From: Hormiphora californensis
Taxonomy: Eukaryota; Animalia; Ctenophora
Assembly: GCA_020137815.1 (NCBI GenBank)
Contig: CM035352.1
Span: 4,774,001-4,838,000, forward strand
Reading direction: 5' to 3'
DNA length: 64,000 bases
Positions 7,169 through 64,000 of the stretch are shown in pieces. The translations under genes were made by a program, and so were the position numbers. How positions within the stretch are numbered: the first letter of the stretch is position 1; each line of letters opens with the position of its first letter. The notes beneath the pieces are model-generated. The model was not told the DNA's origin. It ran no database searches and saw nothing but the letters and a program-made list of their open reading frames with translations.

Positions 7169-7444
7169 GGACTCTAGGTGGTAGTCAAGAACAATTTTTA
7201 GCTCAATTTTAGACTAAATTCACTTTAATAACTATATAACTATAACACTATAACCGCTGTAAATACAAGATTTGGGCAATATTACACTGCATCACAGCTG
7301 TAGGGCCGGGTACACACAAGAACAAATAGAATATCTCATGTAGGAAGTAAACCGTTGCAGGGACACGAATTCCAAACAAACAACATAATTGTACTGGAGC
7401 ATTATTCCATTCCACTTTCACTCTCTTTCTCCTCTTTCTCTCTT

Positions 7445-29000: not shown

Positions 29001-30046
29001 ACCTCAGTGTTCAGCATGTGCTGCCAACAGAATACACTGATGCGGTGAAGCAGATCACGTGCAAAACTTGCAACCTTGTAAGTGTTCTAATTTAGGTAGA
29101 TCTACTATACACCCCCTTTTCAGGGCTCCTAAATTAATCACCTTTTAAAATTAAAACCCATGAGTGAAATGTGAATCACACCGTTACCCCCCCCCCCTCC
29201 TCCTCCAGGGCGAGGAATCCAACGCAGGGAAAACAGGTTGTGACCAGTGCAACCCGGGGGAATACAGGGACAGCAGTGTCACAGTCTGCACAGACTGTGC
29301 AGCAGGCAGTTACAGTGACTCAGCCGGAACCGCTCAATGTACACTGTGCAATGAAGGGTACAAGCAACCTGGAACAAAATCAACAGAGTGCATAGCGTGT
29401 CCGGCTGGGGAGTATGCCGACACTAAGGGAGCTACTTCATGCAGTCCATGTCCAGATGGTCATGTTTCAGCTGAAGGGAGTGCAGTTTGCACCATATGCG
29501 ACCCGGTACGTAAAGAGTGCCCCATAATTAGGAGGACACAATAATATGTATTATCTATCTTTAAGCAGATCAACTAAATACATTCTCTACAGGGTACCTA
29601 TGCGCTCAACAACGTCTGCGAGCCCTGTCCTGCTGGGAACTTCACCGATCGACCCGGTGAGACTAGCTGTAGTCCCTGTCAAAAGGGGTACATTTCCGAG
29701 GAGGGGGAGGCCCAATGTGAACTGTGTAAGGCGGTAAGTTATACTGAGAAGACGTCATATACAGTTTATTATCCTAGTTAAAGTTTTTGACATATTATAT
29801 CGCTATCAATTATATATCGTTATCACAAACAGGGAACATATGAAGAGGATAATTTACAATGTGTTGAGTGTGGCATCAATAAATACCAACCCGTGCAGGG
29901 AAGCACAGAGTGCAAAACGTGCCCCAATAACTACTACAGCTCTCAAATAGGTATCCAATATCTGTCTGTCTCTGTCTCTCTGTCTCTCTGTCTCTCTGTC
30001 TCTCTGTCTCTCTGTCTCTCTGTCTCTCTGTCTCTCTGTCTCTCTG

Positions 30047-30126
<80 letters not shown>

Positions 30127-33100
30127 CCACTATTTCCCTCTTGGAACCGACCCAATCCCCACAGGAGCAAGTGACTGTACAGTCTGTCCAGACCACTACT
30201 ACGCTTACGCGGGTTCCGACTGTCAAAAGTGTCCCGCCACCTATGAAGAAATTGTGGCTGATACATCTCTTAGCGGAAATCAGGAAGAGAAATGCAAAAG
30301 TAAGGATGTTTAGAAAGAAATATGTAATGAGAACTAGAAAATTATTGAATTGAATAGCAGCTAACCAGATACATTTCCACCCCAGGCGACCTTGGTGATG
30401 GGTGTTTCGGACAAACCATCACGAACCAGTACGGCAACTGGACCACACCATGGCTTCAGGTCGGCAAATCGTACACCGCGAAATGCACGTATGATGAACC
30501 GACGGCTGACACTGCGGCGGTATTCGTATGCACCTTAAAGAGTGAGGGGGATAATAAAACAGAGCTGGTAGAAGAGTTCACGTGCTTAAAGACAACGAAC
30601 AGCAATGAACTGGAGAAGGTCTTAGAAGTAAGTTATTTGTCACATACTGATCATTCATACTGTCAGAGAATTTATCTAAAACCACTACAATTTAAATTAT
30701 AATTGTTCTTAACCCCCCTGTAGAATTTGAACAAAACCTCGGATGACAAAGCGATTGATATGGAAAAGATAACCTCCAAGACTGCCGATAACGGTCTTGG
30801 GGACGTTTCCGTGGTTACCGACATCATTAATTCCATCACTGACTCAACCACTGAGTCTCTGAGTCCCAACCTGACTACTAGCATTCTGCAGAGTGTCAGT
30901 AATTTGGTGGAGAGTGATCTAAAGGCTGATGTTACCCCCAACTCACAAGACATCACACAAAGGTATGAATAATTAATTAGTTAAACAATTACTCTGCGAT
31001 GATCGGGTGACTGTTGAATTCGGTTTACTAAATGAGATTCTAACATGTATTTGTTCTCCCTCTCTCAGTATGGTTAACACAATCAAGAAGGTGGCGACAT
31101 CCGTGAAGACAAAGAACGTTCCCATAGCAACTAGCAGTGTTGCTGTGATGGATGTTAAGAATGATGCCGACAACAATGCGCCTAATAGTGAAGGTGTCCT
31201 AACCTTCAACCTTGAGTCTAATACCAACCTAGAGGGCTTGAAGGTCGGAACTACGGACTCGGCAGCTACCCCCGCACTAATGGTATGTTTTTATTCCCCC
31301 TAAGTCATATAGAGAGATACTAATTTCATGGCAATATCAATATCTTATTCTTCTATAACTGACTATATCCCATCAGATCCAGACAAAATCCAGCGGAGTA
31401 TCCACCCAGCGGGACATGTCCATCGTCCTAATCACCGACTCGACCCTCATGCTCGATGCCGATATCTCCGTCACCCCTGTCGCCAACACGGAGGAGGAGG
31501 CGAAGGAGAAAGCCAAGACGATCGTTGCTGATATCATGCGGAATCTGGATAGTGACGGTGACGGGACTGAAGACACAACCACGTCAAAGACGTATGTTAA
31601 CTCTCTGATAACAGAGGTAACGGTTAACCCAAAGGATGACGATGATGATGATTCGGGATTTCAACTTGACCTCTTCCTACGACCTACACTTGATATTGTG
31701 AGTCTAAACTTTGTGTTTTTAGTACTGCAAAAAACTGAAATTACACGAATAAAACATTATTTTAATCCCCACTAATAACACGTTCCACCAACTATTACAG
31801 GGTGATACTGATACAAGTCTAAATACAAGTACGTCTGGTACTCGGGTCCAGATCCAATACCTTTGCGCCATGTACAACGAGGCAAAGGGAAAGTGGGAGG
31901 AGAGTTGTAAAACTATCTACGATACCATGGACCCCATTAAAGGAGTGATCTGTATTTGCAATCATAACACCAGCTTTGCTGTTCTGATGGTGAGTGTACT
32001 GATCCTAAAGTGTCCATTAGTCTACTTCCATGAATTACGCCTTCAATTAACATAATCTCTATTTCCCTACTAGTCTGCCTCATAATATGACTCCTATTTC
32101 CCTAGTCTGCCTATGAGATTGACCGTGGATATGCTGTCGTCCAATCCTATCTAACATGGATCCTGCTGGGAATCTCAACCCTTGGCCTAGCCCTAACCCT
32201 GTGCTTCCTGCTTCCCGCTGCGGAACTCCGGAAAACCAGATCAGCCAAGATTAACGTGTGTTTCACCGTGTCCCTCATCCTAGCATCCCTTCTGTTCCTG
32301 GTCCAGGATCTCTTTATCAAGTCTGATAACAACGGGGTCATAAAACTTGTAAGTTCAAACAAAATTCTAGCTTCTAGGTTCTTTCATTATATTCCATTAT
32401 TTCCATCTATACAGTATAAATTCACCATCTCTCTCTCCGCAGTTAGAACTAACCCTCTCTTTCTCTCTCCTACAGAGATCCACTGGATGTGCGGTATACA
32501 CAATGCTCCAGCACTACCTTTGGCTGGTTGTGTTCATGTGGATGATTATCGAGGGTTTCCTCATGTACCTCTCACTGGTCCAGGTCTTCGGCTCACACAT
32601 CTCCAAATACATGCTAAAATTCAACCTGGCTGCGTGGTGTAAGTTAAACCTTGTTCTTATTATTCGATGCTTTATACCCTGTGTTTTGACCCAGAAGATG
32701 TATGTACAAACGAGTTAATTATGAGTGCTAACATCCCCCTCTCTATTTTCAGTGATTCCAGTTCCTTTCCCCCTGATCGGTTACTTTGTGTTCACCAATT
32801 CATACACAGTCGGGGAGGGGGAACAAGCTGTATCTCTAATCGACCATAATTATATGGCTGAGACGATGTGTTTCATCAAACCTGAAACCATTGCCTTTTA
32901 TACGCTCTTCCTCACCCCCCTCTGTCTCTGTATCATCATCAACCTGGTCTTCTTCGCACTGGTCGCCAAGGTCATCAAGAACTCCAAAAGCTCAGGAAAT
33001 ATCTCCGATAACGAGCAAATGCTGGTAAGAAACTGTTTTAACATATATTCGATAGTCAGTACTGGCTGATATAAAATCAAACATTATAGTTAACAGTAGT

Positions 33101-34090
33101 TAACCCTTTGAGGACGATAGACCATATATGACCCATCCGATAAAATGCCATACTGACCCCAATATTTTCTCAGCGACAACTCAAAGCGGCGGTCGGAGTA
33201 ATGGTTTTACTGGGGACGGGCTGGTTCATTGGAATATTCATGTCGGTTCCAGTTCCTGCGTTCCAAGTCTACATGCAGTACTTTTTCATCATTCTCAATA
33301 GTACTCAGGTATGTTATACAATAGAATTACTATTTAGAATTACTATTTAGAAGTATGATTGGATAATTTAAAGGCGCAACCCCTCCACTGAAAATACTAT
33401 TACCACTGAAAATATAGTAGTTACCATCGTTTACTATTTTTCTGAATCAGCTTTATACAGCAGCCTATAGAAACTGACTAATTCAAACGATTCTCTCCTT
33501 TACAAGTGGCTTTTTCAGTCTCATGTTTCATAAAAATGGCCTCTGATCTGGCTCGTTAGTCATGCAAAATTGTATAATTTCTCTAGCAGCTGCTACCCGG
33601 CTTTCTCTCCTGCAGGATCCTCCAGCTTTCGCCCCTATTTTTACTTTTTAATTCTAGGCAGTAGTCCTTTTCATTCCCTCTCTCTCAGTCCCTCCCTTCT
33701 ATCTCTCCCCCCCCCCCATTTTAATCGCCACTTAGCTCCCTTTTTAGCCGGCAGGTGCAACTTCACCCCCTCCAATTTCAGGGAACATTCGTCTTCCTGT
33801 TCTACATCGTGCTAAACGATCAAGTCAAGACACACTGGATGGTGAAGTTCGGTTTCGCAGAGGCCAAGAAAACCACCACCAGCTCCTCCGCAGCTGCTGC
33901 AACCAAAAACACCACCATGTCCTCGACGGCAGCGAAGCCGGCCAAGACGAAAGAGAACATATACGAGAATCAGGCAGCTGACCAAGGCGCTGAGGAAGAT
34001 CACACGTACTCCACTGCTGAGTATGCAAACATGGACAAATCCGGGAAACATGAGTTCCCTGCTAAGTCTGATGATAATGCGAACATTTGA
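26013..34090 (+). CDS. Adhesion GPCR with long Cys-rich (ephrin-receptor-like/GCC2_GCC3, TNFR-like) repeat ectodomain, GAIN/GPS and secretin-type 7TM; about 24 exons
   Basis: Many CxxCxxGxY...C repeats (26711-30300); GPS motif CAMYNEAKGKWEESC...ICICNHNTSFAVLM (31801-31990); 7TM exons with LQHYLWLVVFMWMIIEG, CFIKP, LKAAVGVMVLLGTGW and ILNSTQ|GTFVFLFYIVLNDQVK; stop at 34088-34090. The start is uncertain (ATG 26013 needs a one-base correction; ATG 26038 is in frame). Confidence 0.92.
27416..27764. repeat. Intronic minisatellite, ~37-39-bp unit, about 9 copies
   Basis: CACCACTCCTAACCCCCTGACCCCATCCCAGACCTCTA units; the last unit ends in the acceptor cccacag. Confidence 0.9.
29962..30126. repeat. 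(CTCTGTCT)n and (CT)n intronic microsatellite
   Basis: Seen directly. Confidence 0.9.
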
Positions 34091-37411: not shown

Positions 37412-39360
37412 GTTCTCCTCACATCTCTTCTGCATCTGGTAGTCCACGCCACAGACGCCCATTCATACACCACCCACTTATCTGAAGCTGAACTTCAATC
37501 GTTTTTCCATCACACCTAAGGGGTACACTGGACATGGTGCCTCAGGTGAAGTGAATACACTTGACAATTGACTGTGATCCAAAATTAGTGCATAAGAATG
37601 GAAATTAAGCTAAATTTAGCTCAATTTTGCCGAAACACTTGAATCTTTGCCTTGCTCGACCCTGTTTCACCAAGCTCAGCACGTGAAGGAGGGTTAGAAC
37701 ATAACAATAAAATCTTGCAGGGTACGGTGTAGTTGACCTGGGTGACGGTAATCCTTCACACAAAGGTACAATCTCACTTTTTTCATTTTTTTTGTTTCCC
37801 TACAGCTCACTTTTACCTGAGACAATTGGAAATTGATAACTATTCTAATTTTACCAGGTCGTCACCGTCGAGCATTTTTCAATCCAAAGGGGACACCTTG
37901 GCCTAATGGCGAATATAACTACGCGTTTGACGGCAGAATTAAACCTCTCCAAAAGGAGTTGGTTCTAGAAGCTATGAAGAACATTTCTCGGAAGGTTCCT
38001 TGTATCAAGTTTATACCTGTCACGGAACGGAAAGATAACATGATAATTCACTCTGGGGGTGATCAGCACCAGTAAGTTTACTTCCAATTATATTTCCCGA
38101 TCATTTGACAGATCTATTAGTAAAATATTTCACAATCCCCCATCTCCCTTCTCTGTTATGTAACCACACTTACTCCTTTAGTTGCTACGCCTCAACGATG
38201 GGCTACAAACCCGGTCACGTGATAGTGTATCTGGGGAAGTACTGCGACAGAAATGTGGTTGCACATGAGATGCTCCACGTGCTTGGTGCAATACACACAC
38301 AGAACCGTCCTGATAGAGATGACTATGTGGATATTCACTGGGACAACATTAGAGAGGATTTTAGGAAACAATTCAAGAAGGCCAAGGAGAAAAAGGCTCA
38401 GCCAAGACCAGGAAAATATGACTTTCTCAGTGCAATGCATTATCCCGCATTTGCTTTCGGTGTCTCCTCGGACAAGCCTAGTTTGAGCCCGCTGAAGGAC
38501 GGGGTGGAGCTATTAAATCATGGTCACTTACCAGTAAACGAGGAGGACTACCGGTCACTGAGGGAGTGGTACGGGTGCTGCAGGGAGGCAGATGATTGTG
38601 TGAAGAGGGACGAGGATCAGGGTAGTAGTAATGGGGGCGAGGATCAGGGTGATACTGGGGACGAAAACCAGGGTGATACATGGGAGGAAGAAGAGGGTAC
38701 TGATGCATGGGACGAAGAGGGTGGTACTGGTACCGGGGACGAGGATCAGGGTCGAGATACCGGGGAAGAGAATCAGATTCGGGATACTGAAATCAAGGAA
38801 GAAATAGCTGATACTCCGTTTGTCGGCGCCAGACCCCGTTTTGTACTCGGATCGGGTCGGCACCCCCAGACAGCTGATAATGGAATCGAGGAAGAGGGTA
38901 TTGTCGAAGTGACAGGAGAGAGGGCAATAGAGGGAGAGGGCACTGAGGAAGACGAAGAGACAGGTACTGATACCGAGGAAGAGAATCAGGTTCGAGATAC
39001 TGGTGTCGAGGAAGAGAGTACTGATACTGGGATCGAGGAAGAGGGCACTGATATAGATGGAGAGAAAGAGGGCACTGATATAGATGGAGAGGAAGAGAGC
39101 ACTGTTGAAAGGGAAGAAGAAGAAGAAATCACAGTCGAGATGCCGACCGAAAAGAAAAAACGAAAGCGGGACGCTGAAAGTAAGATTTTAATCAACAGAT
39201 ATGTCAAATAAAATATATCCAATCAACATGACATTAAAATTAATTTCCCATTTTCGGCACAGGAGACACTGAAGCAGCAGAAGGAGTGATTAAAAAACGA
39301 GTGAAAGTTCTGGAAGGGCATCCTTTTGTTTTTGTCCTTCTCAATAAACCACTATTGTAA
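37412..39360 (+). CDS. Astacin-family (M12A) zinc metalloprotease with acidic C-terminal repeat tail
   Basis: HEMLHVLGAIHTQNRPDRDDYV zinc motif; Met-turn SAMHY; propeptide ending RHRR|AFF followed by WPNG; signal-like VLLTSLLHLVVHA exon at 37412. Exons at about 37412-37545, 37721-37764, 37858-38071, 38182-39179 and 39263-39360. The start codon is not resolved. Confidence 0.88.
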
Positions 39361-39918: not shown

Positions 39919-40454
39919 GCGTTGGCGGACGACGATCAGATCACATTGCACGGTATCGTCTGGTGTGACTGTGAGCGGCGCTTACCAGATATCATCGTTT
40001 ATCAGTGATCAGTTGGAGTATTCGTTGGCAGGGAAACACAGCATTATGAAACATAATGCAATAATAATTCTTGTTGTAACTGGGCCCTTAGGTGTCTTAG
40101 ATCTGGCAATGTGGCCTTGAACATTTTCCTCACTCCGAAATAATTGCCTTAGCAACGGTTGCTAAGGCAGTTATTTGCTAAGCAACCTCAATGCAGCCTT
40201 TAATAACACCCTCTTCCAGGCCTGTCAAGTGGGTGCACCCTAATGGGACCACTATTCCTCCCACCTCAACATCCCAAGACGGAACGGTAGAGATGGTTCG
40301 TGTTCCCATTGCTAGGACTAACGATCACAACGGGACGATGTTCCTCACCCATGTAGAGTTGAACAATAATATCCTTGTTGTGGAATGGACTGTCCAGGTG
40401 GTGGGGGAAGACTCCGTTTTGGGACGAGATATTGGTGGAGTTGTGGAGCCGTAA
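39919..40454 (+). pseudogene. Three-exon 3' gene fragment of unknown family, with one defective splice donor
   Basis: Exons 39919-40004, 40092-40139 and 40220-40454 join in consistent phase 2, giving ALADDDQITLHGIVWCDCERRLPDIIVYQCLRSGNVALNIFLTPKPVKWVHPNG...GGVVEP*; the second donor reads AT, not GT. Confidence 0.4.
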
Positions 40455-40971
40455 TTATTGTTTTTTAATAATTTGGGGGAGGATAATTCCGTCTGTATAA
40501 AGTTATTTATTCGAATTTGTTAATTGCTTGTCGTGTTTGTGTTGGCTGTTATTAACCACCATGTTTCCAAGAATGTTGTGCTCATATCATGACGTTATCA
40601 GTGAACAATCATTATTATATGTAGTACTGTGGAATACACGCGGACACAGTACTCAATACTAATTGTTGTGGAGTGTTATTTGACAAAAGTTTCCCAAAAT
40701 CAGGTTGCCCCTAGGTTGGCGTTATCCGCGACACATTCTTATCTCTAATTATTTAGAGAGCTGAGATCTCTACAGCAGTAACATTGACCGCGATCATGAC
40801 TTCATTGTTTCCTCCTATCCTTAAATCTCACTTTCTGACGCCTCAACCCCCTCTTTCTCTCCTCCAAGTAAGCGCCCTTGTTTTCTCCTTGTTTGACCCA
40901 TATAAACCTAGACAGGACTGCCAGTATTTAAGCCAGCTCCCTCTCTCCAGCTGTTACAGATCTACCACATC

Positions 40972-41948
40972 ATGATACGAACTTTGTGTTTCCTGGCGTT
41001 CTTCGTCGTGAACCTCTCCCTCGCCTCCAAGATATTCTTGAGGTTCCAGGTTGATACTGTGCCCCTTAAAATGACAGACGAAATGCTTACTGAGGTACAT
41101 GCTTTTACTTGACATACATGACGTACATGACGTACATGACGTACATGACGTACATATACTAAATTCCCGTCGATCGTCTAACTAATAACCCTCTGCCCTT
41201 TTAAATTATAGGATTTTGACAGGCCAACCTTCCAACTCTTTAGGCTCTAACCTCCCTGGTTCTACAGCTTTAAAATGTTGACTATCAACAGTTGACATGC
41301 CCATACCCCGTGTCACAATTCTAGGCCTTCTAACACCATATTTTTTTTCCAGAAACTCGGCGAAGGCCTCATTGAAGAATACATGAGTTTGGCTAACGAC
41401 TCCTTCAAGGATATCTCGAGCGTGAGGAACAAGAACCAAGCTTGCCTCAGTGAGGATTTTGTAGAGCAGCAGCAGGATGTTTTCCCCTGGTACATCCGGC
41501 ATGTTCGGTGTTCAGGGATTGGACAGCAGTGCAATAAACGTGACGTCAGCTACACATGCCTCCAGGTATAATAATGTCAGGTGACACATGCCTCCAGGTA
41601 TAATAATGTCAGGTGACAGATTTAGTTTCCCATGCGCTGCCCCTTCTAGGATCAGTAAGGATTTACTTGTCGATCATCCTATCTTTATTTCTATTTATAT
41701 ATTTCCCAATCCTAGGTGCCCTTATCTCCGTTTCTCCCTTTTGAAAAGGGCCTTTTCTCCACTTCCCAAGTTGTCATGTATAATAACACTCCTTTTACCT
41801 ACCTCCCAGACGACTATTAAGAAGCATGTATTGAAGCACGACGCGAATAGGATTGAGCAATTTGACGATGGACTAGTTCTATGAGTTCTGGGAGAAAGGG
41901 ACGATTGAGGTTGGAGTAGGATGTGAGTGCTCCTGGCAGGCATATTAA
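40972..41948 (+). CDS. Secreted cystine-knot growth factor/hormone, Trunk/PTTH-like (about 157 aa; 3 exons; one +1 frameshift near 41876)
   Basis: Exons 40972-41094, 41353-41565 and 41810-41948, all phase 0 with GT-AG borders. Signal peptide MIRTLCFLAFFVVNLSLA. Mature region ACLSEDFVEQQQDVFPWYIRHVRCSGIGQQCNKRDVSYTCLQTTIKKHVLKH...(shift)FYEFWEKGTIEVGVGCECSWQAY* has six Cys and a terminal CxC. Confidence 0.82.
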
Positions 41949-42421: not shown

Positions 42422-45400
42422 CAGGGTGTGAACTGCATGTCGTGTTTGCTAGTCGCGAGCGCGCTTGCGAGACAAGCAAACACGTCAAGGTTCATTAACA
42501 AGCATGCTGCTCAGTCGTTTTAGATTTAATACACAATGTAAGGATACCATGTAATAGGTGAGACTCTTGCCGTCACCCTCGTTCAAGTCCCGTGAAAAAC
42601 GGAGCAGTACACGCAAACTGATGCCCATTTTCCTCGCGTGACCCCGATTCAGCAGTTTGAGACACCAACTCTTTAGGGGGCCATATCTCAGGAACCAGAC
42701 AAGATAGGAAAAATCGCCGTCTAACGAGGCGTACAGTTTTTAATCTAGTTTACCACTGTACCGGCCGTTTCACTCTCCGACCTAAAACAAAAATCGCAAC
42801 CCCACAAAACTTCAAAATAATGAAATTCGCATCTCGCATGTCGTGTTGCATGTCGTGTTGCATGTCGTGTCATGTTATTGACGTGCTCGCGTTCAACTCT
42901 CACACAGCAGCTGCAGAACATGGCGGGAAACATCGAGGAGTAGAGAGAGGGTCGGTGCCGAATCAAATATTTCTTGATCTTGATCTACTCCATCTCTCAG
43001 CTATCCTACCCCTCATCAACTCGATCTCTCAGCTACCCTACCCCTCATCTACTCCATCTTTCAGCTACCCTACCACTCATCTACTCCATCTTTCACCTAC
43101 CCTACCCCTTATCTAGTCCATCTCTCAGCTACCCTACTCCTCATCTACTCCATCTCTCAGCTTCCCTATTAGGGAAGCATAGAGATGGAAACGATTAGGG
43201 GTAGGGAATCCCTATCCATAATCGTTTCCATCTCTGTGCTTCCCTAGCCGTCATCAACTCCATCTTTCAGCTACCCTACCCCTAATCTACTCCATCTCTC
43301 AGCTACCCTACCTCCCATTTACTCCATATCTCAGCTACCCTACCTCCCATTTACTCCATCTCTCAGCTTACCTACCTCCCATTTACTCCATATCTCAGCT
43401 TCCCTACCTGCCATTTACTCCATCTCTCAGATACCCTACCTCCCATTTACTCCATTTCTCAGCTTCCCTACCTCTCATTTAGTACTCCATCTCTCAGCTA
43501 CCCTACCTCCCATTTACTCCATCTCTCAGCTTCCCTACCTCCCATTTACTCCATCTCTCAGCTACCCTACCTCCCATTTACTCCATCTCTCAGCTTCCCT
43601 ACCTCCCATTTACTCCATCTCTCAGCTACCTTACCTTCCATTTACTCCATCTCTCAGCTTCCCTACCTCCCATTTACTCCATCTCTCAACTACCCTACCT
43701 CCCATTTACTCCATCTCTCAGCTTCCCTACCTCCCATTTACTCCATCTCTCAGCTACCCTACCTCCCATTTACTCCATCTCTCAGCTACCCTACCTCCCA
43801 TTTACTCCATCTCTCAGCTTACCTACCTCCCATTTACTCCATCTCTCAGCTTCCCTACCTCCCATTTACTCCATCCCTCAGCTTCCCTACCTCCCATTTA
43901 CTCCATCTCTCAGCTTTCCTACCTCCCATTTACTCCATATCTCAGCTTCCCTACCTGCCATTTACTCCATCTCTCAGATACCCTACCTCCCATTTACTCC
44001 ATCTCTCAGCTTACCTACCTCCCATTTACTCCATCTCTCAGCTTCCCTACCTCCCATTTACTCCATCCCTCAGCTACCCTACCTCCCATTTGATCCATCT
44101 CTGAGCTTACCTACCTCCCATTTACTCCATCTCTCAGCTTCCCTACCTCCCATTTACTCCATCCCTCAGCTTCCCTACCTCCCATTTACTCTATCTCTCA
44201 GCTACCCTACCACCCATTTACTCCATCTCTCAGCTTTCCTACCTCCCATTTACTCCATCTCTCAGCTTCCCTACCTCCCATTTACTCCATCTCTCAGCTT
44301 CCCTACCTCCCATTTACTCCATCTCTCAGGGGTAGGAATGTTAGGATAAATGAGAGATGGAGTAAATGGGAGGTAGGGAAGCTGAGAGATGGAGTAAATG
44401 GGAGGTAGGGAAGCTGAGAGATGGAGTAAATGGGAGGTAGGGAAGGTAAGCAATGGAGTAAATGGGAGGTAGGGAAGCTGAAAGATGGAGTAAATGGGAG
44501 GTAGGGAAGCTGAGAGATGGAGTAAATGGGAGGTAGGGTAGCTGAGAGATGGAGTAAATGGGTGGTAGGGTAGCTGAGAGATGGAGTGAATGGGAGGTAG
44601 GGTAGCTGAGAGATGGAGTAAATGGGAGGCAGGGATGGAGTAAATGGGAGGTAGGGAAGCTGAGGGATGGAGTAAATGGGAGGTAGGGAAGCTGAGAGAT
44701 GGAGTAAATGGGAGGTAGGGTAGCTGATAGATGGAGTGAATGGGAGGTTGGGTAGCTGAGAGATGGAGTAAATGGGAGGTAGGGAAGCTGAGAGATGGAG
44801 TAAATGGGATGTAGGGAAGCTGAGAGATGGAGTAAATGGGAGGTAGGTAAGCTGAGAGATGGAGTAAATCGGAGGTAGGGTATCTGAAAGATGGAGTAAA
44901 TGGCAGGTAGGGAAGCTGAGATATGGAGTAAATGGGAGGTAGGTAAGCTGAGAGATGGAGTAAATGGGAGGTAGGGAAGCTGAGAGATGGAGTAAATGGG
45001 AGGTAGGGAAGCTGAGAGATGGAGTAAATGGGAGGTAGGGTAGCTGATAGATGGAGTGAATGGGAGGTTGGGTAGCTGAGATATGGAGTAAATGGGAGGT
45101 AGGGAAGCTGAGAGATGGAGTAAATGGGAGTTAGGGAAGCTGAGAGATGGAGTAAATGGGAGGTAGGTAAGCTGAGAGATGGAGTAAATGGGAGGTAGGG
45201 AAGCTGAGATATGGAGTAAATGGGAGGTAGGTTAGCTGAGAGATGGAGTAAATGGGAGGTAGGGAAGCTGAGAGATGGAGTAAATGGGAGGTAGGGTAGC
45301 TGAGAGATGGAGTAGATGAGGAGTAGGGTAGCGGAGAGATGGACTAGATTAGGGGTAGGGTAGCTGAAAGATGGAGTTGATGAGGGCTAGGGAAGCATAG

Positions 45401-46212
45401 AGATGGAAACGATTATGGATAGGGATTCCCTACCCCTAATCGTTTCCATCTCTATGCTTCCCTAATAGGGAAGCTGAGAGATGGAGTAGATGAGGAGTAG
45501 GGTAGCTGAGAGATGGACTAGATAAGGGGTAGGGTAGCTGAAAGATGGAGTAGATGAGGGGTAGGGTAGCTGAAAGATGGAGTAGATGAGGGGTAGGGTA
45601 GCTGAGAGATCGAGTTGATGAGGGGTAGGATAGCTGAGAGATGGAGTAGATCAAGATCAAGAAATATTTGATTCGGCACCGACCCTCTCTCTACTCCTCG
45701 ATGTTTCCCGCCATGTTCTGTAGCTGCTGTGTGAGAGTTGAACGCGAGCGCGTCAATAACATGACACGACATGCAACACGACATGCAACACGACATGCGA
45801 GATGCGAATTTCATTATTTTGAAGTTTTGTGGGGTTGCGATTTTTGTTTTAGGTCGGAGAGTGAAACGGCCGGTACAGTGGTAAACTAGATTAAAAACTG
45901 TACGCCTCGTTAGACGGCGATTTTTCCTATCTTGTCTGGTTCCTGAGATATGGCCCCCTAAAGAGTTGGTGTCTCAAACTGCTGAATCGGGGTCACGCGA
46001 GGAAAATGGGCATCAGTTTGCGTGTACTGCTCCGTTTTTCACGGGACTTGAACGAGGGTGACGGCAAGAGTCTCACCTATTACATGGTATCCTTACATTG
46101 TGTATTAAATCTAAAATGACTGAGCAGCATGCTTGTTAATGAACCTTGACGTGTTTGCTTGTCTCGCAAGCGCGCTCGCGACTAGCAAACACGACATGCA
46201 GTTCACACCCTG
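42422..46212. mobile_element. 3.8-kb foldback element with minisatellite-containing arms and 5-bp TSD (hAT5-like termini)
   Basis: CAGGGTGTGAACTGCATGTCG...CGACATGCAGTTCACACCCTG; TSD ATTCA at 42417-42421 and 46213-46217, present once in the host element's other arm; arms of about 1.9 kb meet near 44340. Confidence 0.9.
42985..45650. repeat. 32-bp minisatellite arrays in inverted orientation
   Basis: CCCTACCTCCCATTTACTCCATCTCTCAGCT(T/A) up to about 44328; reverse complement from about 44352. Confidence 0.95.
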
Positions 46213-47934
46213 ATTCATTTCTCGTTCATTCATAATGCGAGCATCCTAATTTTCCATCATTATGCTATTCTTCTTTGGCTTGAATTTATCTTTCCAATGA
46301 TCACCATAAAAATGAAATTGAAGCACCAGGTCACGTAGCAGTTGAGAAAATGTTCATGCATGATTTTGGCTCTTTTTGCGACTTTCAAATAGCTGTATCA
46401 CGGCTACCTTTCATTCAATCTCCTTAAAACTTTGGGAAAACATTGGATAACCAAAGATCTTTGCTCACAAGAAAAATCAAGGTCAAAGGTCAAAGTTCAT
46501 TTTTCATTTTTGTAAGTTCATTCCGTTCATTCATGAACCATCATCCCTAAAGTGATGAAAAGGTTTGGGTTTTGTTTGGCCCCTGTCCTGCAATGACAGA
46601 GAGGTGTAATAGCGTGTTTCCGGGCTATTTTGTGGGTGTCCATGTGATCATGATGATATCTGACACCTTTTCTGAGCCATAATTAAGGGATTTTCTCAAG
46701 TTCAAGCATGTAGCTTGGTTTTTCTGCGTGCAACAATGCTATGAGATCTCATAACACCTCAAAAATGATGATTCGATCAATGAAATGAGTTTATTTATGA
46801 TCAAAATTGTTCGTTTCGTTCAATTTGACATCGGTTTTAATCTTTTCAATCATAAATCAACTTATTTCATTGAGCTAATCATCATTTTTGAGGTGTTATG
46901 AGATCTCATAGCATTGTTGCACGGTACTAATCGCAGAAAAACCAAGTTACATGCTTGAACTCGAGAAAATCCCTTAATTATGGCTCAGAAAAGGTGTCAG
47001 ATATCATCATGATCACATGGACACCCAAAAAATAGCCCGGAAACACGCTATTACACCTCTCTGTCATTGCAGGACAGGGGCCAAACAAAACCCAAACCTT
47101 TTCATCACTTTAGGGACGATGTTTCATGAATGAACGGAATGAACTAACAAAATTGAAAAATGAACTTTGACCTTTGGCCTTGATTTTTCTTGTGAGCAAA
47201 GATCTTTGCTTATCCAATGTTTTCCCAAAGTTTTAAGAAGATTGAACGAAAGGTAGTCGTGATACAGCTGTTTGAAAGTCACAAAAAGAGCCAAAATCAT
47301 GCATGAACATTTTTTTAGCTGCTGCGTGACCTGGTGCTTTAATTTCATTTTTATGGTGCTCATTGGAAAGATAAATTCAAGCCAAAGAAGAATAGCATAA
47401 TGAAGGAAAATTAGGATGCTCGCATTATGAATGAACGAGAAATGAATGAAGGAATGAAAAATGAATTTTTGAATTTTTGACAAAAAATCATGGAAAAAGT
47501 TACCAAGGAATTGATCCAGAGTGCTCCCATAATTTTTATTCTCACAACTATCACCGTTTTGACGTACCACCTCGCTAACCATGACCAACAATCCGTGGCC
47601 CACCTTGTAGTTGCTGTCATGTAGTTCGTTATAGATTAGTTAGTTGGTTCTGCCATAGGTGTCACATGGTCTGACATAGATCCAAACTCTGTCTCTCCTT
47701 CAGCTGGCTGCCCTACTTTCTGATTCACCTCCTTTAACGCTGAAACGAAAACTAATTAGCAGAACTCTCTATGGAACTTCGAGAAAAGTTATTTGTCAGG
47801 GGCACTGCTGACTGCTGCCGGGGAGGTCAAATTAGACGGGTCAATCATTTATGTTGGTATTATGGCACAAGTTTCTAGAATATTCTGCAGTGTCTACTGG
47901 ACAAGAACCCTCTATTATATCAGCTGTGTCACTA

Positions 47935-50845: not shown

Positions 50846-53800
50846 TCATTTCGTAAAGCCAAGACTACCGGATTCTTTAACGGCCTGTTCAAGTCTTGCA
50901 GTCATGGGAAGGTAACTTTTTAAAGAATGACAGACGTGAAAAACAATGTCGCTCTTGGCAGAAAACCCATCTTCTTTCAGTTGCGTTGTGACGTATTTGA
51001 AGGTTGGTGTCGTTTCCAGGGTGTTCTTAATTCTGATAAAATAATGTTTGATTAGCTGTCAATAAAAATCAGACAGGGAATACAAATTAAGCAAGATGTG
51101 TTTTTATGGTGACAATTCTCCGTGCAAGATATGTATGTTAACCAACCTTGCAAATAGAGGGACAGCATAAGAGGGAAGATTGTCGATAAGGGTCTCATAC
51201 AGCAGGTCCCAGTCCAATTTATCTTGGTCGATAGTGAGAGCAATCATTCCTGCCCTGCCGTTATGGTGCGGTATTGCTATCCCGTACACACACGCCTCCT
51301 TTACCCCTCGTACTTTGGTTACTAATGCAGCCACCTCCACAGTCGATACGTTTTCTCCTTTCCATCTAATATACAGGGTGGTCATGTATGGGATCAGAGG
51401 GATAATTTCGTTACCAAGCCATAACTCCGGTTCATTCCACAGGGTGTTCATATATGGGATCTTTACAAGCGTTGAGCTTCACCCAGAAAAAATTTGACAA
51501 GATTAGTTTAAATGAAACTTCACACTTGGACTATATATTACAGCCTCAGGTCTCATTCAAGGTTCCTGGTGTTTCCGAAGCTCTAATACCCCTGGAAGTG
51601 TGTTTTTGGCATCTAAGGTACACGAAGAAATTTTTTCCTGGGTTTGAGACTTTGCTAAATCGTTTTTTAGATATTTTCTATGTTAAGTTAAAAGTTTCAT
51701 GATGATCGATATTTTTCTATCTGGCGCCGCTGACCCCATCTGAACGCACTTGGAATCAAATTTGGGTGTGGCGCCGCCATACAGATATTTTTGGGCTCCA
51801 GATGTCTCAGTTTAGTTGGCTTGGTAAGCCAAAAAAACGCTCAAAAAGGGAAAAAATTGGCATTTTTGATCTTTGTAGCCACTTTTTTCGAAATTTGGAG
51901 ACCGATAAACACCTTCGATCATCATAAAACTTTAAACTTGACATGTGTTTAGGGGTAAACGCTGCCCCTTGTAGTGGAATTACAGTAATGGAATTACAGT
52001 AATAAGACGCAGACTTTGCATAACGTGCGGCTACAAGCGACCGGGAAACTATTATATGACGCAGGCGAAATGAAGTTTTTTACTAGAACCGGAGCTATGG
52101 CTTGGCAACCACATTATCCCTACCTACAACGATGCCTACGAGGGGTAAATTATGGCGAAATTTAAAAGCTTAAAAAATGACACTCCTTTAAAATCCGAAA
52201 ACGTTTAATTTACCGATAAGTGTCGCCTAGTCGGTCCTGAAAGTAGAAAGATCTATCCTCTCCAATTGTTACAAGATCACCCGTGCTTAGGAAGTTGTCT
52301 CCCTTTTCCAGAACATCTTTTATCACCTTGTCATCATTGCTTTCACTGTAATACAGCGTTCCTAGATACGGACAGAAGAAGAATGATTATATAAGAAGGA
52401 ACTGTCCAATGTCTAATGGACATGGCATCCACATAGTTTGCAATACGTACAATATAATATATTGAATGGATGCTGTTTTATCTTACGATTAGTGTTTTGC
52501 TCCTGGACGATGAGTAGTCCAGGTTGACCAATTAGACACAGTTTACAGAGCTTTGTTTGGAGATCTCGGACTGGGATCATCGTTTCTCCATTACACTGTA
52601 TAACCCTAGTAAATAAAGTAATAAACGATCAATATAAAACCGTTCATAAAACATTGGATCTAGGCGAGATCATTAGTAAAAACATGAAGGAGTTAAGAAG
52701 AAATGACCTCAGCTGCAGGCTGCAGCAATCAAGCAATATGGTTCTTGTACCTGTAGGGTTGGGGTCCAAACTTTATCCTTGGGATGTAACCAAGGGAACC
52801 GGGCTTGTTCAGAACAGACCCCAGGAAGGAAATGCCCTCGGTTTGACCATAAAACTCGGCCACGTTATCTATGTTAAAATCTTTCTTGAAAGTCTCATAA
52901 ATGTCCTGTCCCAGGCCGTTTCCAATACACGCCTTGGTCCGGGAATCCTGCCGGTTGAAGGTTTGCCGTCGGTTCAGCAAAAACCGGCACATTTCACCGA
53001 CATAGAGGAAGATGGTGGACTTGGTGTCCTTCAAATCACACCAGAATGTGTTAACTGAAAACTTCTCCCTGATCACAAAACTAGCCCCACTCTGAAATTA
53101 CATGATTGGAATAATTAGTCTGATTGTAGAGGATACTTATGAAAATGTTAGCATGGAGAAATTTTTGACCTCTAAAGTCCATTTTTTGAACAGTTAGACT
53201 TAAGCGAACTGCTTCAATTATTGAATTTTCTGTTCTATGGGCTAGAAAATATTACTTTCTGGTTTAATTCCCCTTAATTAGTATTATTAAATTAATTACC
53301 CTGATGGCGATGTGCATGCCAATAGACAGAGCTGTAGAGTGGTAGAGGGGGAGTGTGCAAAATATCCTGTCAGAGTTGTCGATCCCATACCTGTAAAACA
53401 TAAAGGTAACGACGAGTTATCTATCAATCTATCAACAAAAGTGATAATGAAGATTGCTTTTACTTTTACGTATAAAATATTCAATATGGATAAAACAACT
53501 ATGTAGTTACTCTGTTACAAATGATATTGTATGATAGATATATGATAGATATTATATATCTCTTTAGTCTTTGTATGCGTTGAACTATTTGTATCTCTTT
53601 TTATCATTGTTAGCAATGATATTACCCCTCCGCCCAAGTGACTCCGCCCAAGTGCCCCGGTATCTTTGTTGAGCTCCCAAAACAAAATGTGGTAATTATT
53701 ACTTGCCAAAACACTTTAGTTCTCAAAATATGATGAATTATGTAATCTGTCAAATTTGATTTTATAGTCTTCATTTTACAAGGTCACGGTGGGAAGAGTT

Positions 53801-57906: not shown

Positions 57907-60572
57907 TTACAGTCGGGCATCGTAGTGGTCCCTTTTGTACGCTTTTAGCATCTCCGACATTTTCTCGAATCCTTCGTAAAGGCCATCGCCCGTAATTGCA
58001 TTGCACGCTTGCACGTGCCATTTATTATTTCTGAAAAGAGTAAATTGGGGTTTTCAATCGGAAAAAAACTAAACGTGATTCAAATTTCATGTCATTGTTT
58101 ATGCACATGTGTGATCCATGTGTTACTTATTCGTTGCCAGGCACTGACTGAAAATTATATAATGAGACACATGTAATTGTGGAGGGACGAAGTACAAGAC
58201 ACAGGGTTTCTTCGTCCCTCCACAATTACATTGATCACCACACCCGGCGCAATGGGGACAGGAACTGACCAGGAGTAGGCTGGGCATCCCTAGGGGGTTC
58301 AGGAGGAACCACAGCAACCCAACACTATCGATATGAGACACATGTGAGATACATACCTGTAAGAGTGGAGTTGAAGTTTATCGACGACCTCTGAGATCCT
58401 GCATGCGTTTGGTAGATCCTGTTTGTTGGCCAATATCAGCACGGGAACATGTGCCGGTAACTCACTTGACTCCAAAACCCCTCTCAGCTCCTCACCAGAT
58501 TCCTGAAAATTAATACCAAGTTAAAGTTTATACAATTATATCGACCAAAACGCGGAGTTTTTACGTCATCCGACCCGAAACCGGCTTGAATTTGGTCACC
58601 CGTTATTCTCAGGACATCCAAATATGTCAAAATGTGTTTATGCAAACCCCATGTTTTGAGTGTTTTTCGCGTTCTACCCCTAATGGGTTTGGGTACGGCC
58701 GTCGGCCACCCCCTATACGTCGCGGGACCTCGGGACCTTTCCAACCTCTCTACGACTTTCACTCTAAAAATATCTATGATTAATGATTATGGTTTGTGGT
58801 TTTTTGCCATGCTTCGTAGGCTGTTTAAGCTCGTGCTAGCTCACAGTATGAGTCACTCCTTAGCCCGATAATATGATGTCCCAATCTGTCGCAATCTATC
58901 GCAAATTTTGGTCAACTCTATATATAGTCTAGGAAGCTTTACGTAATGCGAGTATTTTAGAGTAAATAGGTTGAAATATCATTACATATTATAATATTCT
59001 TTTGACATTTTTATTTCTCATGAATCGCTGAACGTATTATAATATTTCAAATTGATAACATAATAAAGTATTTATTTCTCAACATTTAATTATATGGTAC
59101 AGTTTGCTTGTAGCTCAACCTGTCAATTTACCCTATCACTTGCATTTATATATTACGCTGTCAATTTTTGACAACCATAATAAGATAAGGAAACGTGGAG
59201 AGCAGGGAAAGTTTTATTTGACAGAACTTATCTCCCAAATTTCACCACCATGCATGGGAAGTTTTATTATCTCCCCATTTCCTTAGAACCTAGTTCAGTA
59301 CAATATTCAACTCGACTTATGATAGGAAGTTTTATTATCTTCCATTCTCCCGGCTCCCAATTTATTTCCTAAACTAATACAGGATCCAACTCGACTTATA
59401 ATGGAACTCACCATGAACCTCGTTGGATCGTTGCTATCCACGACAAACACTATTCCCTTGGCAGTTGTGTAGTAATGCCTCCAGAGCCGTCTTATCGCTT
59501 CCTGACCACCGACATCCCAAATCGTGAAGGTGATACCTAAACAAATCGAGATTCAGATGATATGAGATGGAAAGGGAGCAAGATAACGATTCAGAGAGTG
59601 GGATTTAGCTGGGAGCAAGAAGTGTGACCATAGCGTTTTGATTTAAACATAGTAACTCTGCAGATTACGCCCTTGTCATATAAAATGAATTTTGTAAATT
59701 ATTAAGAGGCTTGACAGGCATTTGGCTTTATCTTTGTACCCAGAAAGTGCCAAGTTTCATGGAATATATTATATTCTACCTAGAATTTGACATGGCAGAT
59801 GCCGGATGAATTGATAATAAAATGGCTCTATCTCAAAATGAAGCTTGATGTCAAATTTTGAATGCAATTTGAAAGGTGGTTAATAAGCTTTCACTTTACA
59901 AAATAGCATAACCACTGGTTATACCTGTCTGGCGCCGCGACCCCATCTGAGCACACTGTCGCGATTTGAGAATCAAATGGGGTCTGGCACCGCCAGACAG
60001 GGTTAATCTATTTTGTAAAGTGAAAGCTTCATAAATATAACATATAATACAGTCGGACCCCGATTTAACGGCACCCCTATTTAACGGACAAACCCCTTTC
60101 CCCGAGGGTGCCGTTATAAATCGGGTTTCGACTGTCTAATGCAGTTGACATCTGAATTATAAGAAGGCTACTAGGCTAGGTGTCGCGGATCGAAGTTGTT
60201 TTTTGACCTAAATCTGTAAAAGTGAAATGGAGTATGTATACACTTGGACCAGATATATATATAGTTTAAAAATGCCATCCTACGCAGTCTGCCCATTGCA
60301 TTCGGCGAGCTAAGCTTGTACGCTCACACCGAGCCGACATACTGGGACCATGTCAAGTTTAAAACAGTAGCCCTACCTTTGCATGGAGTGACTGTTTCCA
60401 CATTGAACCCGATGGTAGGAATGGAAGAAATGGTTTCGTTCAACTTCAGCTTGTACACAATGGTTGTTTTCCCTGCGTTGTCCAGGCCAATCATGAGGAT
60501 GTTCCAGGGATCGTTGCCAATTCCCACAATGTCCGTGAAGGAACTCCACATTTTCCCCAGGATGAGACCCAT
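57907..60572 (-). CDS. ARF/ARL-family small GTPase (ARL14/ARL11-like), 4 exons
   Basis: N-terminal MG (myristoylation site); GLDNAGKTT (G1); PTIGFNVE (G2); WDVGGQ (G3); LANKQDLP (G4); [11 protein letters not shown] (G5); stop at 57907-57909. Confidence 0.93.
60050..60134. mobile_element. Very short member of the CAGTCGGACCCCGATTTA MITE family in ARF intron 1
   Basis: TA|CAGTCGGACCCCGATTTAA...TAAATCGGGTTTCGACTG. Confidence 0.7.
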
Positions 60573-62132
60573 GCCGTTGCTATGGGAATTGGGATTCAGA
60601 GCGTTGTGGATAAAGCATTTATTATGTCTAACAGTTTACTAAGGAGGAGGATCATAATTGTATGTCATGCGGCCTAGTTTTATTCTTAAATTGTTCAATT
60701 ATTATGCTCATGTAACTGACACTGACGAAGTTGGCTTCTTAAAAAGGATTGTACTGTCGTTTAGTAAGCATAAATATGAGGATGGGTAAAAATCACTGTA
60801 CTGCATGATACGAAGAATATTTGATATAATATTCAGAGTGAGAAACATGTTCGATATAATATTCAGAATAAGAAACAGGATACACATGGTTTCACCATTA
60901 AAGGTTGACAAGTTACAGGAGTTTAAGTAAAATGTGTAACGATGATGATCAGAGTCGCAAATCTGGTAGCAGCATGGCAACACTAAAATGATCTGTTTGT
61001 TTAGAGAGCGTCATCACCGGGTGCCGTATTTGAGTGTATGTTTACATTGTCCCCATGGTTTGGGTGTAATTACTGCTTAAAATGTAACCATGGTAACGGT
61101 CTAGCAGACAATCACAGTCTCAGTAGTACAAAGTCATAATATGAACAGTATTAAGAGAAAAGTAATGATGTCAAAAGTGTTGTGTTACATGGTGTGAGTT
61201 GTGCTCGGTACTTCTGAAACAACTGAACAGTACACAAGAACATATAACAATGATTCAGATAATGCTTGCTGCTCTTTTATAGAGCATCTCTTACCTGTTA
61301 AGATGTGTCTGGTGTATCGTCACATTGTGCCACGTCCGCAGCCACCACGCTGCCTGCCGAGTGCTGTACAACAAGCGTACTGCTGTGATCTCACTCCCAT
61401 TATGTATTGAACTGGCCAGCAGCCAGAGAGATAGAAAGGGAGAGAGAGAGGTAGACTAGAGACATGGAGATTGGAGAGTGGGAGAGCGGTAAAGGCACGA
61501 GGGATAAATTAGAGAGACATGCAGATAGAAGAGCGATACAGACACATAATAACGGTTGGAGAGAACATGTAAAAAGGAAAGCTGAGTTATCTCTATTATC
61601 ACGAGTGACATCATGATATTACTAATAATATGATATGAACAGATATGAAATGGCCTGGGATCTTCAAAAAATTGATTAAAAGGGGGCTTTTTTCGAACCA
61701 TGGGCCTTCTGCATGCGAGGCAAGTGTTTCATTTAATTACTACGACCGCAAGTGTAGCTATACTTGTTGAGTAAGGGCCAAGGGGGTACTCAACGAGGCT
61801 ATAACATATATCTGAAATTCGCAGTCTGATTGTACGGGGAAATTTAACTTTTATCTACCAAGTTGGTTTCATAAGCTATGATCTATTGCGGCTAATTAGT
61901 GATGCTTTGTGTTACGCAAAACATGAAGTACGGACTTTGGATCAGAGTCGGTTTTGTTCAATATATATGATTGCTGAGAAGTTTGATTTTGACCAACAAT
62001 ATGACAGAGCAACTTTTGGACAGTTTTTGAGTGATGTGAGAATCTTTAGTTGGAACTGGCCAGATAAGATGCAGATTGACAAGTCACAGATTGACAGGTC
62101 ACAGATTGACAGATCACAGAGAGAGAAAGAGA

Positions 62133-62172
<40 letters not shown>

Positions 62173-62732
62173 CGGGATTATTTGAATTGTAAATTGTTTA
62201 TATTTCGTAGCACAGTGTCAGGCAACTCAAGGGATCGTGACATGTATATATATCAGAATTTAATTTCCCATTAATTTTGAAGGTTCCAAGTAACGCGTTG
62301 TCCCACGTTGCCACACACCAAGTTCAATTACTCCGTTACCCGTCAGTTGTAAATTTGTTAACCTTTTGTCAGTTAGGTGCTATGTTAGTAAAGTCAGATT
62401 TTTTTGAATGTGTCACCCCCAAATGCACGCATACTAGAACCCCAATGACCAAAATTTCTGTCGATGTTTTTTGAGCAAAATTTTCTCGATTTTTCCATTG
62501 ATAAAGTGCCACAAAGTCAAGAAGTTACTTTTTTCCTCATCTGAGGAAATGTCAGAGGGGATAGAAACTGTACCCTCAAGACAATTTATTTAATCTCTTT
62601 TTGTTTAGGCCGCACGAGACAGATATACTTGAAAAACTCAATGAGTCAATGAGTTCAGTTTTTACATAACCCCATTTCCCCACCTAGAAACCCCCATTAT
62701 TTGTACCTAACCCCATCTCACCACTTAGTCCC

Positions 62733-64000
62733 ATGATTTCATTGCTTGGGGACATCCTCGTCTTCTCCTACCTGTTCCTAATCTCAATTCTGAGCATAGC
62801 CAGTAACACCTTTGTCCTCCTATGTGCCAACAACTACCGGGCATCTGACACCGACAAAGTCTCCATAACATTCATCAAGAATCTAGCCGTCTCAGATCTC
62901 CTCTGCACTATCCTATTTGTCATACCATCCCTGTGCAACGTTGAACGAGCGGATTATCCGGAGTTATGTAAAATTGCCGGCATCTTGGCGTACATCCCCG
63001 CGGAGACGGAGATCCTCTTGATAGTTCTGATCTCAGGGTACAAGGTCTGGAGGTGTGTGTGCCCCTTTAGGTTACCCCTAGCGAACTGGCGTACAGTTAC
63101 TATCCGGCTACTGGGTGCGGGTGTCTGGATAACGGCTGCCCTCTGTACCATGGGTCCACTCCTAGCCACCGACTATGTCATGATATACGACCCACAGCTG
63201 AGACGGTGTGTGTTTGACCGCAGTGAGGTGTCCCTCGTCAGGCTGTGTAAGTTTATATAAATACTTAGTCGAAACCCGATTTACCGAAAAGCTTTTCCCC
63301 GGTAAATCGGGTACCGTATTATATGCTGAACACACGACACACGTGTCCATAAAGCATGGTCACGTGTGTCCACTTTGCATTGGACACTAGTTACACAATC
63401 TAATTGACACACCAACAAAATACTAACTGTATCTCCAATTCTAACTATCTCCATTCCACAGGCTTCTTTCTGTTCGGGACCCTACTACCTCTACTTCTGA
63501 TTATCATTTTCAACCTCACCCTCCTCTTCATTACCGTCCGTCGGAGTAACAACCTCAACTCGAAGGCCCCCTTCACAGTCCTATCCCTCTCGGGACTCTT
63601 TCTCCTCTCCTCCCTCCCCTTTATCATCTACAACATCCTCACCTCTGTTCACGGGGTGCAACCTGCCTTCAACGGGCTGAAGACTTTTGCTGGCTTCATT
63701 TACTATGTCAATCTGGTTGGAAACCCCATCGTTTACACCCTAACCAGTCAGCGGTTTTTCCAGCACTGTCTGCTGGTGATGAGGGCGGTATACAGAGACG
63801 ATATACCCTTGACAAGACGGAGCTTGAGAAGCTCAAGACAATCAAATTTACAGAGGGTGAACACGTTAGAGATTACTGTTGTGTCAAATAGTGTGAACAA
63901 TGCTACCAAGAACTCCCCAAGATCGTCTCTTGCAAGAGCATCAGTTGTTGAAAGTGCTACGAAGAACTCCCCAAAACATTCTCTTGCAAGAGCATCAGTT
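62733..64000 (+). CDS. Class A orphan GPCR, two exons (62733-63246; 63462 to window end), C-terminus incomplete
   Basis: TM1 SN; TM2 FIKNLAVSDLL; TM3 Cys; degenerate DRY (GYKVWRCVCP); ECL2 Cys; TM6 SSLP; TM7 GNPIVY; phase-1 GT-AG intron; frame open to 64000. Confidence 0.9.

What the first reader, a model, noticed from the sequence alone, without database searches (positions are those of the whole stretch)
40972..41948. Hidden Trunk/PTTH-type cystine-knot signalling ligand, missed by the ORF track
Seen: three phase-0 exons give a signal peptide, a short pro-region and a six-Cys domain with FPWYIRHVRC...C...C...HVLKH...YEFWEKGTIEVGVGCEC. The last two Cys are reached only by skipping one extra base near 41876. 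Knowledge: this spacing matches the Trunk/PTTH/Noggin/IL-17 cystine-knot group and most resembles insect Trunk (FPRYIRSIEC...KVLRR...W...CCEC). As I recall, trunk-like peptides have been reported from ctenophore transcriptomes, but I know of no identified function or receptor. Inference: a peptide hormone or growth factor in an early-branching animal that automated annotation would truncate or drop.
Basis: partly seen in the sequence, partly recalled or inferred. Interest (0 to 1): 0.85.

Follow-up and report, generated by a model that had tools for sequence, protein, structure and literature searches.

The report
Comb-jelly Trunk-like signal gene, intact
An intact, spliced comb-jelly gene that looks broken only because of a one-letter assembly error encodes a small, likely secreted protein matching the already published comb-jelly relative of the insect signals Trunk and PTTH, so it is a new member of a known family whose receptor and job are still untested.

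Summary
Three phase-0 exons (40972-41094, 41353-41565, 41810-41948) are joined at both GT..AG introns in 2 of 2 RNA runs laid. The extra base near 41874-41876 is missing in 5 of 5 runs that span it, so it is an assembly error and the gene encodes 157 residues. 13 of 17 variant codons are silent. A neighbouring gene is 95% identical to a Pleurobrachia bachei protein, so the host is a ctenophore. By eye the protein matches, end to end, Mnemiopsis ML093034a, the trunk-like peptide published in 2019 (PMC6660194): about 36 of 81 knot residues and nearly the same cysteine spacing. It is therefore a new member of a known kind, in a second ctenophore lineage, and not an undescribed ligand. It keeps an N-terminal motif seen in Trunk and Noggin but has only the six core cysteines. 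The cystine-knot fold could not be tested on the whole protein, and single exons gave no Pfam, PDB or fold match. Receptor and function are untested; that paper lists no ctenophore Torso. The scan had not noted this gene before, but noted a similar six-cysteine pair in Trichoplax.

The parts
40901..40906 (+). TATAAA, TATA-box-like, 71 nt before the ATG; no upstream ATG in 40860-40971
   Evidence: function inferred, start of transcription not measured
40972..41094 (+). Coding exon 1 (residues 1-41): likely signal peptide 1-18, then a short conserved segment
   Evidence: hydropathy peak at residues 1-19; small-residue cleavage sites after 18 or 19; 20 of 41 identical to relative P0003. No SignalP available
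41095..41352 (+). Intron 1, 258 nt, GT..AG, phase 0
   Evidence: skipped in X7 and X8; same position in relative P0003, which reads through it
41086..41385 (+). L-x3-LG-x6-YM motif (residues 39-52, across intron 1), also seen in Trunk and Noggin-type sequences
   Evidence: 385 of 200,000 shuffles match the loose pattern; by-eye comparison with published sequences
41353..41565 (+). Coding exon 2 (residues 42-112): short pro-region, sequon N56, basic site R66, Cys72, 94, 101, 110 and the FP-W-Y motif
   Evidence: 82% identical to P0003
41566..41809 (+). Intron 2, 244 nt, GT..AG, phase 0
   Evidence: skipped in X7 and X8; P0003 diverges at the same junction
41810..41948 (+). Coding exon 3 (residues 113-157 and stop) with KHVLK, YEFWE and VGVGCEC (Cys150, Cys152)
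   Evidence: covered to 41960 by RNA contig X7
41874..41876 (+). One surplus base, an assembly error; possibly two alleles of one codon (Gln, Leu) merged in the consensus
   Evidence: left out in 5 of 5 spanning runs; the two-allele reading is inferred from two different gap placements
41443..41930 (+). Predicted cystine-knot domain, C72-x21-C94-x6-C101-x8-C110-x39-C150-x-C152
   Evidence: for spacing; fold inferred from family membership, not tested on the whole domain

Best explanation
This is an intact, spliced three-exon ctenophore gene for a 157-residue, likely secreted six-cysteine protein, the likely orthologue of the Mnemiopsis trunk-like peptide ML093034a, which is predicted to fold as a cystine knot and most likely signals by binding a cell-surface receptor tyrosine kinase, as Trunk and PTTH do. 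Shown: exon joins, intact frame, silent-site bias, ctenophore host. Seen by eye only: end-to-end match to ML093034a. Inferred: signal cleavage after about residue 18; three intrachain disulfides (72-110, 94-150, 101-152, by analogy with PTTH, recalled); optional trimming at R66 (K65-R66 in X8 and P0003) to free the knot; probable non-covalent dimer, since no spare cysteine is left; RTK-MAPK signalling through a receptor not yet identified. Odds: intact gene 0.97; homologue of ML093034a 0.95; cystine knot of the Trunk/PTTH/Noggin group 0.85; RTK ligand 0.55.
For: Splicing in 2 of 2 RNA runs. Surplus base absent in 5 of 5 spanning runs. 13 of 17 variant codons silent, including both changes after the break in the corrected frame. 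Relative P0003 keeps exon 1, exon 2 (82%), four cysteines and both intron positions. Neighbouring gene 95% identical to a Pleurobrachia bachei EukProt protein. ML093034a in the supplement of PMC6660194 has spacing x22, x6, x8, x43, x1 against x21, x6, x8, x39, x1 here and about 36 of 81 identities from first to last knot cysteine (counted by eye). That paper links ML093034a to trunk sequences at P<1e-5 and only transitively to PTTH. Trunk and PTTH activate the Torso RTK; a clip-less aphid Noggin-like protein does too (PMC9071555).
Against: No tool confirmed the family independently: exon 2 and exon 3 alone gave 0 Pfam families and 0 PDB sequence matches; the exon-2 model was poor (pLDDT 47) with no fold match. 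The family call rests on a BLAST-clustering paper plus a by-eye comparison. Typical Trunk motifs (PWxC, DLG, CW, CxP, extra Cys pair) are absent. [quoted passage not shown] No genome was available to look for a receptor. The RNA evidence is from two plankton metatranscriptomes of one study, 95-99% alike, so possibly another population or sister species.
Confidence: 0.6

Rival explanations
1. Same gene and fold, but it works like Noggin: it would bind and dampen ctenophore TGF-beta-family ligands, alone or in addition to activating an RTK.
For: [quoted passage not shown] Mnemiopsis has TGF-beta ligands but no detected Noggin, Chordin, Follistatin or CAN antagonist (PMC3169577). No ctenophore Torso is listed. 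The L..LG..YM motif resembles Noggin's as well as Trunk's, and the segment right after the signal peptide (LR..D.VPL) faintly recalls a fish Noggin clip shown (by eye, post hoc).
Against: The clip proline and acidic end are missing, and the PL of that segment is not kept in Mnemiopsis. Only six cysteines; Noggins have more. The published clustering ties ML093034a to trunk, not noggin. Drosophila Trunk does not dorsalise frog embryos. A 2024 review says ctenophores seem to lack true BMP orthologues.
Confidence: 0.15
2. A ctenophore-specific secreted cystine-knot protein only remotely related to Trunk (equally near six-cysteine IL-17-like or other knots), signalling through a different receptor such as a GPCR.
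For: Many Trunk motifs are absent. No non-ctenophore protein scored with exon 2 among 1.84 billion representatives (1 hit, P0003) or with exon 3. [quoted passage not shown] An earlier scan note describes similar unplaced six-cysteine proteins in Trichoplax (unchecked).
Against: Two separate Trunk-type features, the N-terminal motif and the FP.Y...C...W...VGCxC knot, occur in the right order, and direct BLAST links to trunk sequences are published for ML093034a. Single-exon queries of 45-71 residues have little power.
Confidence: 0.22
3. A pseudogene or null allele lacking the last two cysteines.
For: The window itself stops at residue 136. Contigs drop rare variants, so a rare allele with the extra base cannot be excluded.
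Against: 5 of 5 spanning runs lack the base, including the best-matching DNA sample. The RNA contig X7 is in frame. Variation is mostly silent.
Confidence: 0.03

Closest known systems
Mnemiopsis leidyi trunk-like peptide ML093034a (de Oliveira et al. 2019, PMC6660194)
   Same: Similar length, signal peptide, F.VD segment, L..LGEG..YM motif, RNK.QAC entry to the knot, six cysteines with nearly the same spacing, TTI.KHVLK and IE.GVGCECS; about 36 of 81 knot identities (by eye).
   Different: Other ctenophore lineage (Pleurobrachia-like host); five residues shorter in the knot; has an N56 sequon and, in some forms, a KR site that Mnemiopsis lacks.
Trunk of insects, lophotrochozoans, amphioxus and corals (Torso ligand in Drosophila)
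   Same: Signal peptide, N-terminal L..LG..YM motif, FP.Y(I/L)R.V.C, K.VLK strand, aromatic/acidic Y-E-x-W before terminal CxC.
   Different: No N-terminal cysteine before the motif, pro-region of about 20 residues instead of a long multibasic one, no PWxC, DLG, CW or CxP, no extra cysteine pair; loops x6 and x8 instead of x4 and x6; no Torso known.
Insect PTTH
   Same: Six-cysteine core with similar spacing and a V..GCxC end.
   Different: Lacks the extra cysteine two residues before the first knot cysteine seen in Drosophila and Tribolium PTTH (its role as inter-chain bridge is recalled); keeps the N-terminal motif that these PTTHs lack; PTTH is described as insect-specific.
Noggin and Noggin-like proteins
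   Same: Secreted knot family relation; L..LG..(Y/F)(M/L) motif; [FW]P.[YW] before the second cysteine.
   Different: No clear clip domain, no long helical middle part, fewer cysteines; Noggin reported undetected in Mnemiopsis.

Membership tests
Ctenophore trunk-like peptide (ML093034a type) | End-to-end sequence match with the same six-cysteine spacing | tested here: met
   counted by eye, about 36 of 81; no computed score
Ctenophore trunk-like peptide (ML093034a type) | Ctenophore host | tested here: met
   neighbouring gene 95% identical to EukProt Pleurobrachia bachei P005718
Ctenophore trunk-like peptide (ML093034a type) | One-to-one orthology (reciprocal best hit, single copy) | not testable with these tools
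   no genome held; no second copy within the window
Trunk/PTTH/Noggin cystine-knot group | Signal peptide, no transmembrane segment | tested here: met
   single hydrophobic stretch at the N-terminus, cleavage pattern; no SignalP
Trunk/PTTH/Noggin cystine-knot group | Six core cysteines, FP.Y motif before the second, terminal CxC | tested here: met
   pattern matches 72-152, 0 of 200,000 shuffles; pattern written post hoc
Trunk/PTTH/Noggin cystine-knot group | Cystine-knot fold or profile match | tested here: inconclusive
   only single exons could be submitted: no Pfam, no PDB sequence, poor model and no fold match
Canonical Trunk | N-terminal L..LG..YM motif | tested here: met
   residues 39-52 (385 of 200,000 shuffles)
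Canonical Trunk | PWxC, DLG and CW motifs and the extra cysteine pair (CCxC end) | tested here: not met
   absent here versus Drosophila and Tribolium Trunk
Canonical Trunk | Activates a Torso RTK | not testable with these tools
   no genome; no ctenophore torso in PMC6660194
PTTH | Extra cysteine two residues before the first knot cysteine | tested here: not met
   Cys list versus PTTH entries
Noggin (canonical) | Clip domain with Pro35, Leu46, Glu48 equivalents | tested here: not met
   definition; only a faint by-eye likeness after the signal peptide
Noggin (canonical) | Inhibits BMP signalling | not testable with these tools
   needs an assay

The most novel reading that the evidence does not exclude
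[quoted passage not shown] It acts without Torso, as the extracellular TGF-beta modulator that ctenophores were thought to lack, perhaps also as an RTK ligand.
Probability: 0.15. Interest if true: 0.75.

Novelty: new member of a known kind. Interest (0 to 1): 0.38.

Why it matters
A 2021 review calls Trunk the only ctenophore peptide signal shared with other animals (PMC7935135), and that claim rested on one sequence from one species. This gene adds a Pleurobrachia-type member with spliced transcripts and silent-site bias, plus a third relative with the same introns, so the family is conserved across ctenophores and not an oddity of one gene model. The three sequences mark which residues to test. 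It also shows how one wrong base hides such a gene: no full-length form surfaced in the protein collections searched. It does not yet answer what the protein does or binds.

Tried and rejected
No genome was held, so no Torso search. Pfam on single exons: 0 families for 3 of 3 exons; P0003 gave 3 weak matches below cut-off. PDB sequence search: 0 for exon 3, exon 2 and their two-row profile. AlphaFold2 on exon 2 with a two-row alignment: pLDDT 47, pTM 0.28; Foldseek 0 of 22 rows at E<=0.001; half a knot is not expected to fold, so this says nothing either way. Protein searches: exon 2 found only P0003 (1 of 2 candidates; 1 hit among 1.84 billion representatives); exon 3 found 0 of 1 candidate. 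JGI metagenome scans: 0 of 222 pattern matches confirmed; the terminal motif gave 1 locus, L001, a chance match on the opposite strand of a bacterial gene. The protein atlas gave no result. Alternative splicing as a way round the break was considered and is not needed, since the base is absent from DNA runs too. The PTTH-Torso structure paper was not held, so disulfide pairing is recalled. Searches for later work on the ctenophore gene found none: ML093034a 0 papers, ctenophore+trunk+PTTH+torso 1 paper, only passing mentions; subscription journals are mostly not covered.

Full report
Observation. As assembled, the frame stops after 136 residues and holds four of the six knot cysteines. With one base fewer in exon 3 it runs to 157 residues with cysteines at 6 (in the signal peptide), 72, 94, 101, 110, 150 and 152.

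Splicing and the extra base. Ten public runs were listed and six were laid, all as contigs. Both introns are skipped exactly in the two RNA runs, X7 and X8, with at least 62 letters on the shorter side, and in neither DNA run of that call. These are plankton metatranscriptomes of one study, 95-99% alike, so they may come from another population or a sister species; contigs show neither strand nor level. One letter is left out at the break in X1, X4, X6 and X7 (at 41874) and in X5 (at 41876): 5 of 5 runs that span the site, from 3 samples. X8 ends at 41872. The two placements give a Gln or a Leu codon, both in frame, and X5 and X6 are one sample, so I infer that the consensus merged two alleles. 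The window also differs from X1 by other small insertions and deletions. A rare null allele is not excluded, but the gene is intact.

Constraint. Of 17 codons that differ in X5-X8, 13 are silent, against 20% expected from the codons (p about 8e-7). The four changes are R24S, Q26E, V65K and V84I; none touches a cysteine. A relative, P0003, is 82% identical over exon 2 and 20 of 41 over exon 1. It is a gene call that reads through intron 1 and into intron 2, which shows the same two intron positions.

Host. No genome was held. A single-exon gene at 11758-12837 is 95% identical to a EukProt protein of Pleurobrachia bachei, so the host is Pleurobrachia or a close relative. Earlier scan notes on this genome also call it a comb jelly.

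What it is. PMC6660194 (abstract, passages, Results part 1 of 3, and parts of the supplements seen) reports a trunk-like peptide in Mnemiopsis leidyi, linked to trunk sequences by BLAST clustering at P<1e-5 and only transitively to PTTH. Its sequence, ML093034a, is in the supplement. By eye it matches this protein from the end of the signal peptide to the last cysteine: cysteine spacing x22, x6, x8, x43, x1 against x21, x6, x8, x39, x1, and about 36 of 81 identities in the knot. No computed score backs this count. Mnemiopsis is the only ctenophore in that paper's species list and Pleurobrachia does not occur in its ligand file. Later papers only cite it (PMC9004410, PMC7935135, PMC11087051: passages seen). 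The identifier itself is in 0 papers of the library.

Anatomy against the family. Against the published set (by eye) the protein keeps a signal peptide, an L..LG..YM motif found in Trunk and Noggin-type sequences (residues 39-52; 385 of 200,000 shuffles), FP.Y before the second cysteine, a K.VLK strand, Y-E-x-W and a terminal VGCxC. A loose knot pattern matches 72-152 and 0 of 200,000 shuffles, but not the as-assembled frame; I wrote the pattern after seeing the sequence. It lacks Trunk's PWxC, DLG, CW and extra cysteine pair, PTTH's spare cysteine, and a clear Noggin clip. The pro-region is only about 20 residues. R66 is the one candidate trimming site before the knot; it is KR in X8 and in P0003.

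Limits. Only single exons could be sent to the search and folding tools. They gave no Pfam family, no PDB sequence match, a poor model and no fold match. Protein searches found P0003 alone, although the collection holds Pleurobrachia proteins; this fits a missing gene model but is weak evidence. The cystine-knot fold is thus inferred from family membership, and the disulfide pairing is recalled from PTTH.

Mechanism. Most likely the protein is secreted, forms three disulfides, dimerises non-covalently, may be trimmed at R66, and activates a receptor tyrosine kinase. Trunk and PTTH signal through Torso and MAPK (PMC9071555, parts 1-3 of 5 read, alignment figure not visible; PMC3863949, passages), and a clip-less aphid Noggin-like protein does the same. 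Against this, torso was reported from cnidarians and bilaterians but not ctenophores. The main rivals are a more distant knot with another receptor, and a Noggin-like TGF-beta trap. The latter draws on aphid NL1, which blocks BMP without its clip, and on the reported lack of all known antagonists in Mnemiopsis (PMC3169577, passages). A review doubts that ctenophores have true BMPs (PMC11226491, passages). PMC13482580 was checked and is not relevant.

Verdict. Real, intact and correctly read, but the ctenophore family was published in 2019. New member of a known kind; interest 0.38. The open and testable question is its partner.

Noticed in passing
window 37821-39211 (+): Astacin metalloprotease exons (Pfam PF01400) with a long acidic tail, on the same strand about 1.8 kb upstream of the trunk-like gene. 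A role in processing it is pure speculation.
   Followed up: partly
window 42422-46212: Foldback-type element about 470 nt downstream: 1060-nt inverted arms, 98% complementary, around 32-nt internal repeats, flanked by a 5-nt direct repeat ATTCA. A second inverted pair lies at 46202-47458.
   Followed up: partly
window 41552-41615: 32-nt tandem duplication that copies the end of exon 2 and its donor; a second GT lies at 41598. Both RNA contigs use the first donor; the second would add a stop.
   Followed up: yes
window 41098-41151: Short tandem repeat in intron 1 that is replaced by a shorter stretch in X5 and in one X1 contig.
   Followed up: no
window 40182-40454 (+): 90-residue open frame between the astacin and trunk-like genes, with no Pfam match; perhaps an exon of another gene.
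   Followed up: partly
window 11758-12837 (+): Single-exon 360-residue gene, GPCR-like by eye but no Pfam match at 0.01; only two relatives found, one from Pleurobrachia bachei.
   Followed up: partly
window 29164-34087 (+): Probable adhesion-type GPCR with cysteine-rich Ephrin_rec_like repeats and a weak 7tm_2 match.
   Followed up: no
window 4172-7213 (-): Ankyrin-repeat protein with a long first frame and membrane segments behind it, TRP-channel-like by eye.
   Followed up: no
window 59310-60635 (-), 51107-53097 (-), 62688-64000 (+): Arf-family GTPase exons, AMP-binding enzyme exons, and a rhodopsin-type GPCR that lies in two frames, possibly another assembly indel.
   Followed up: no
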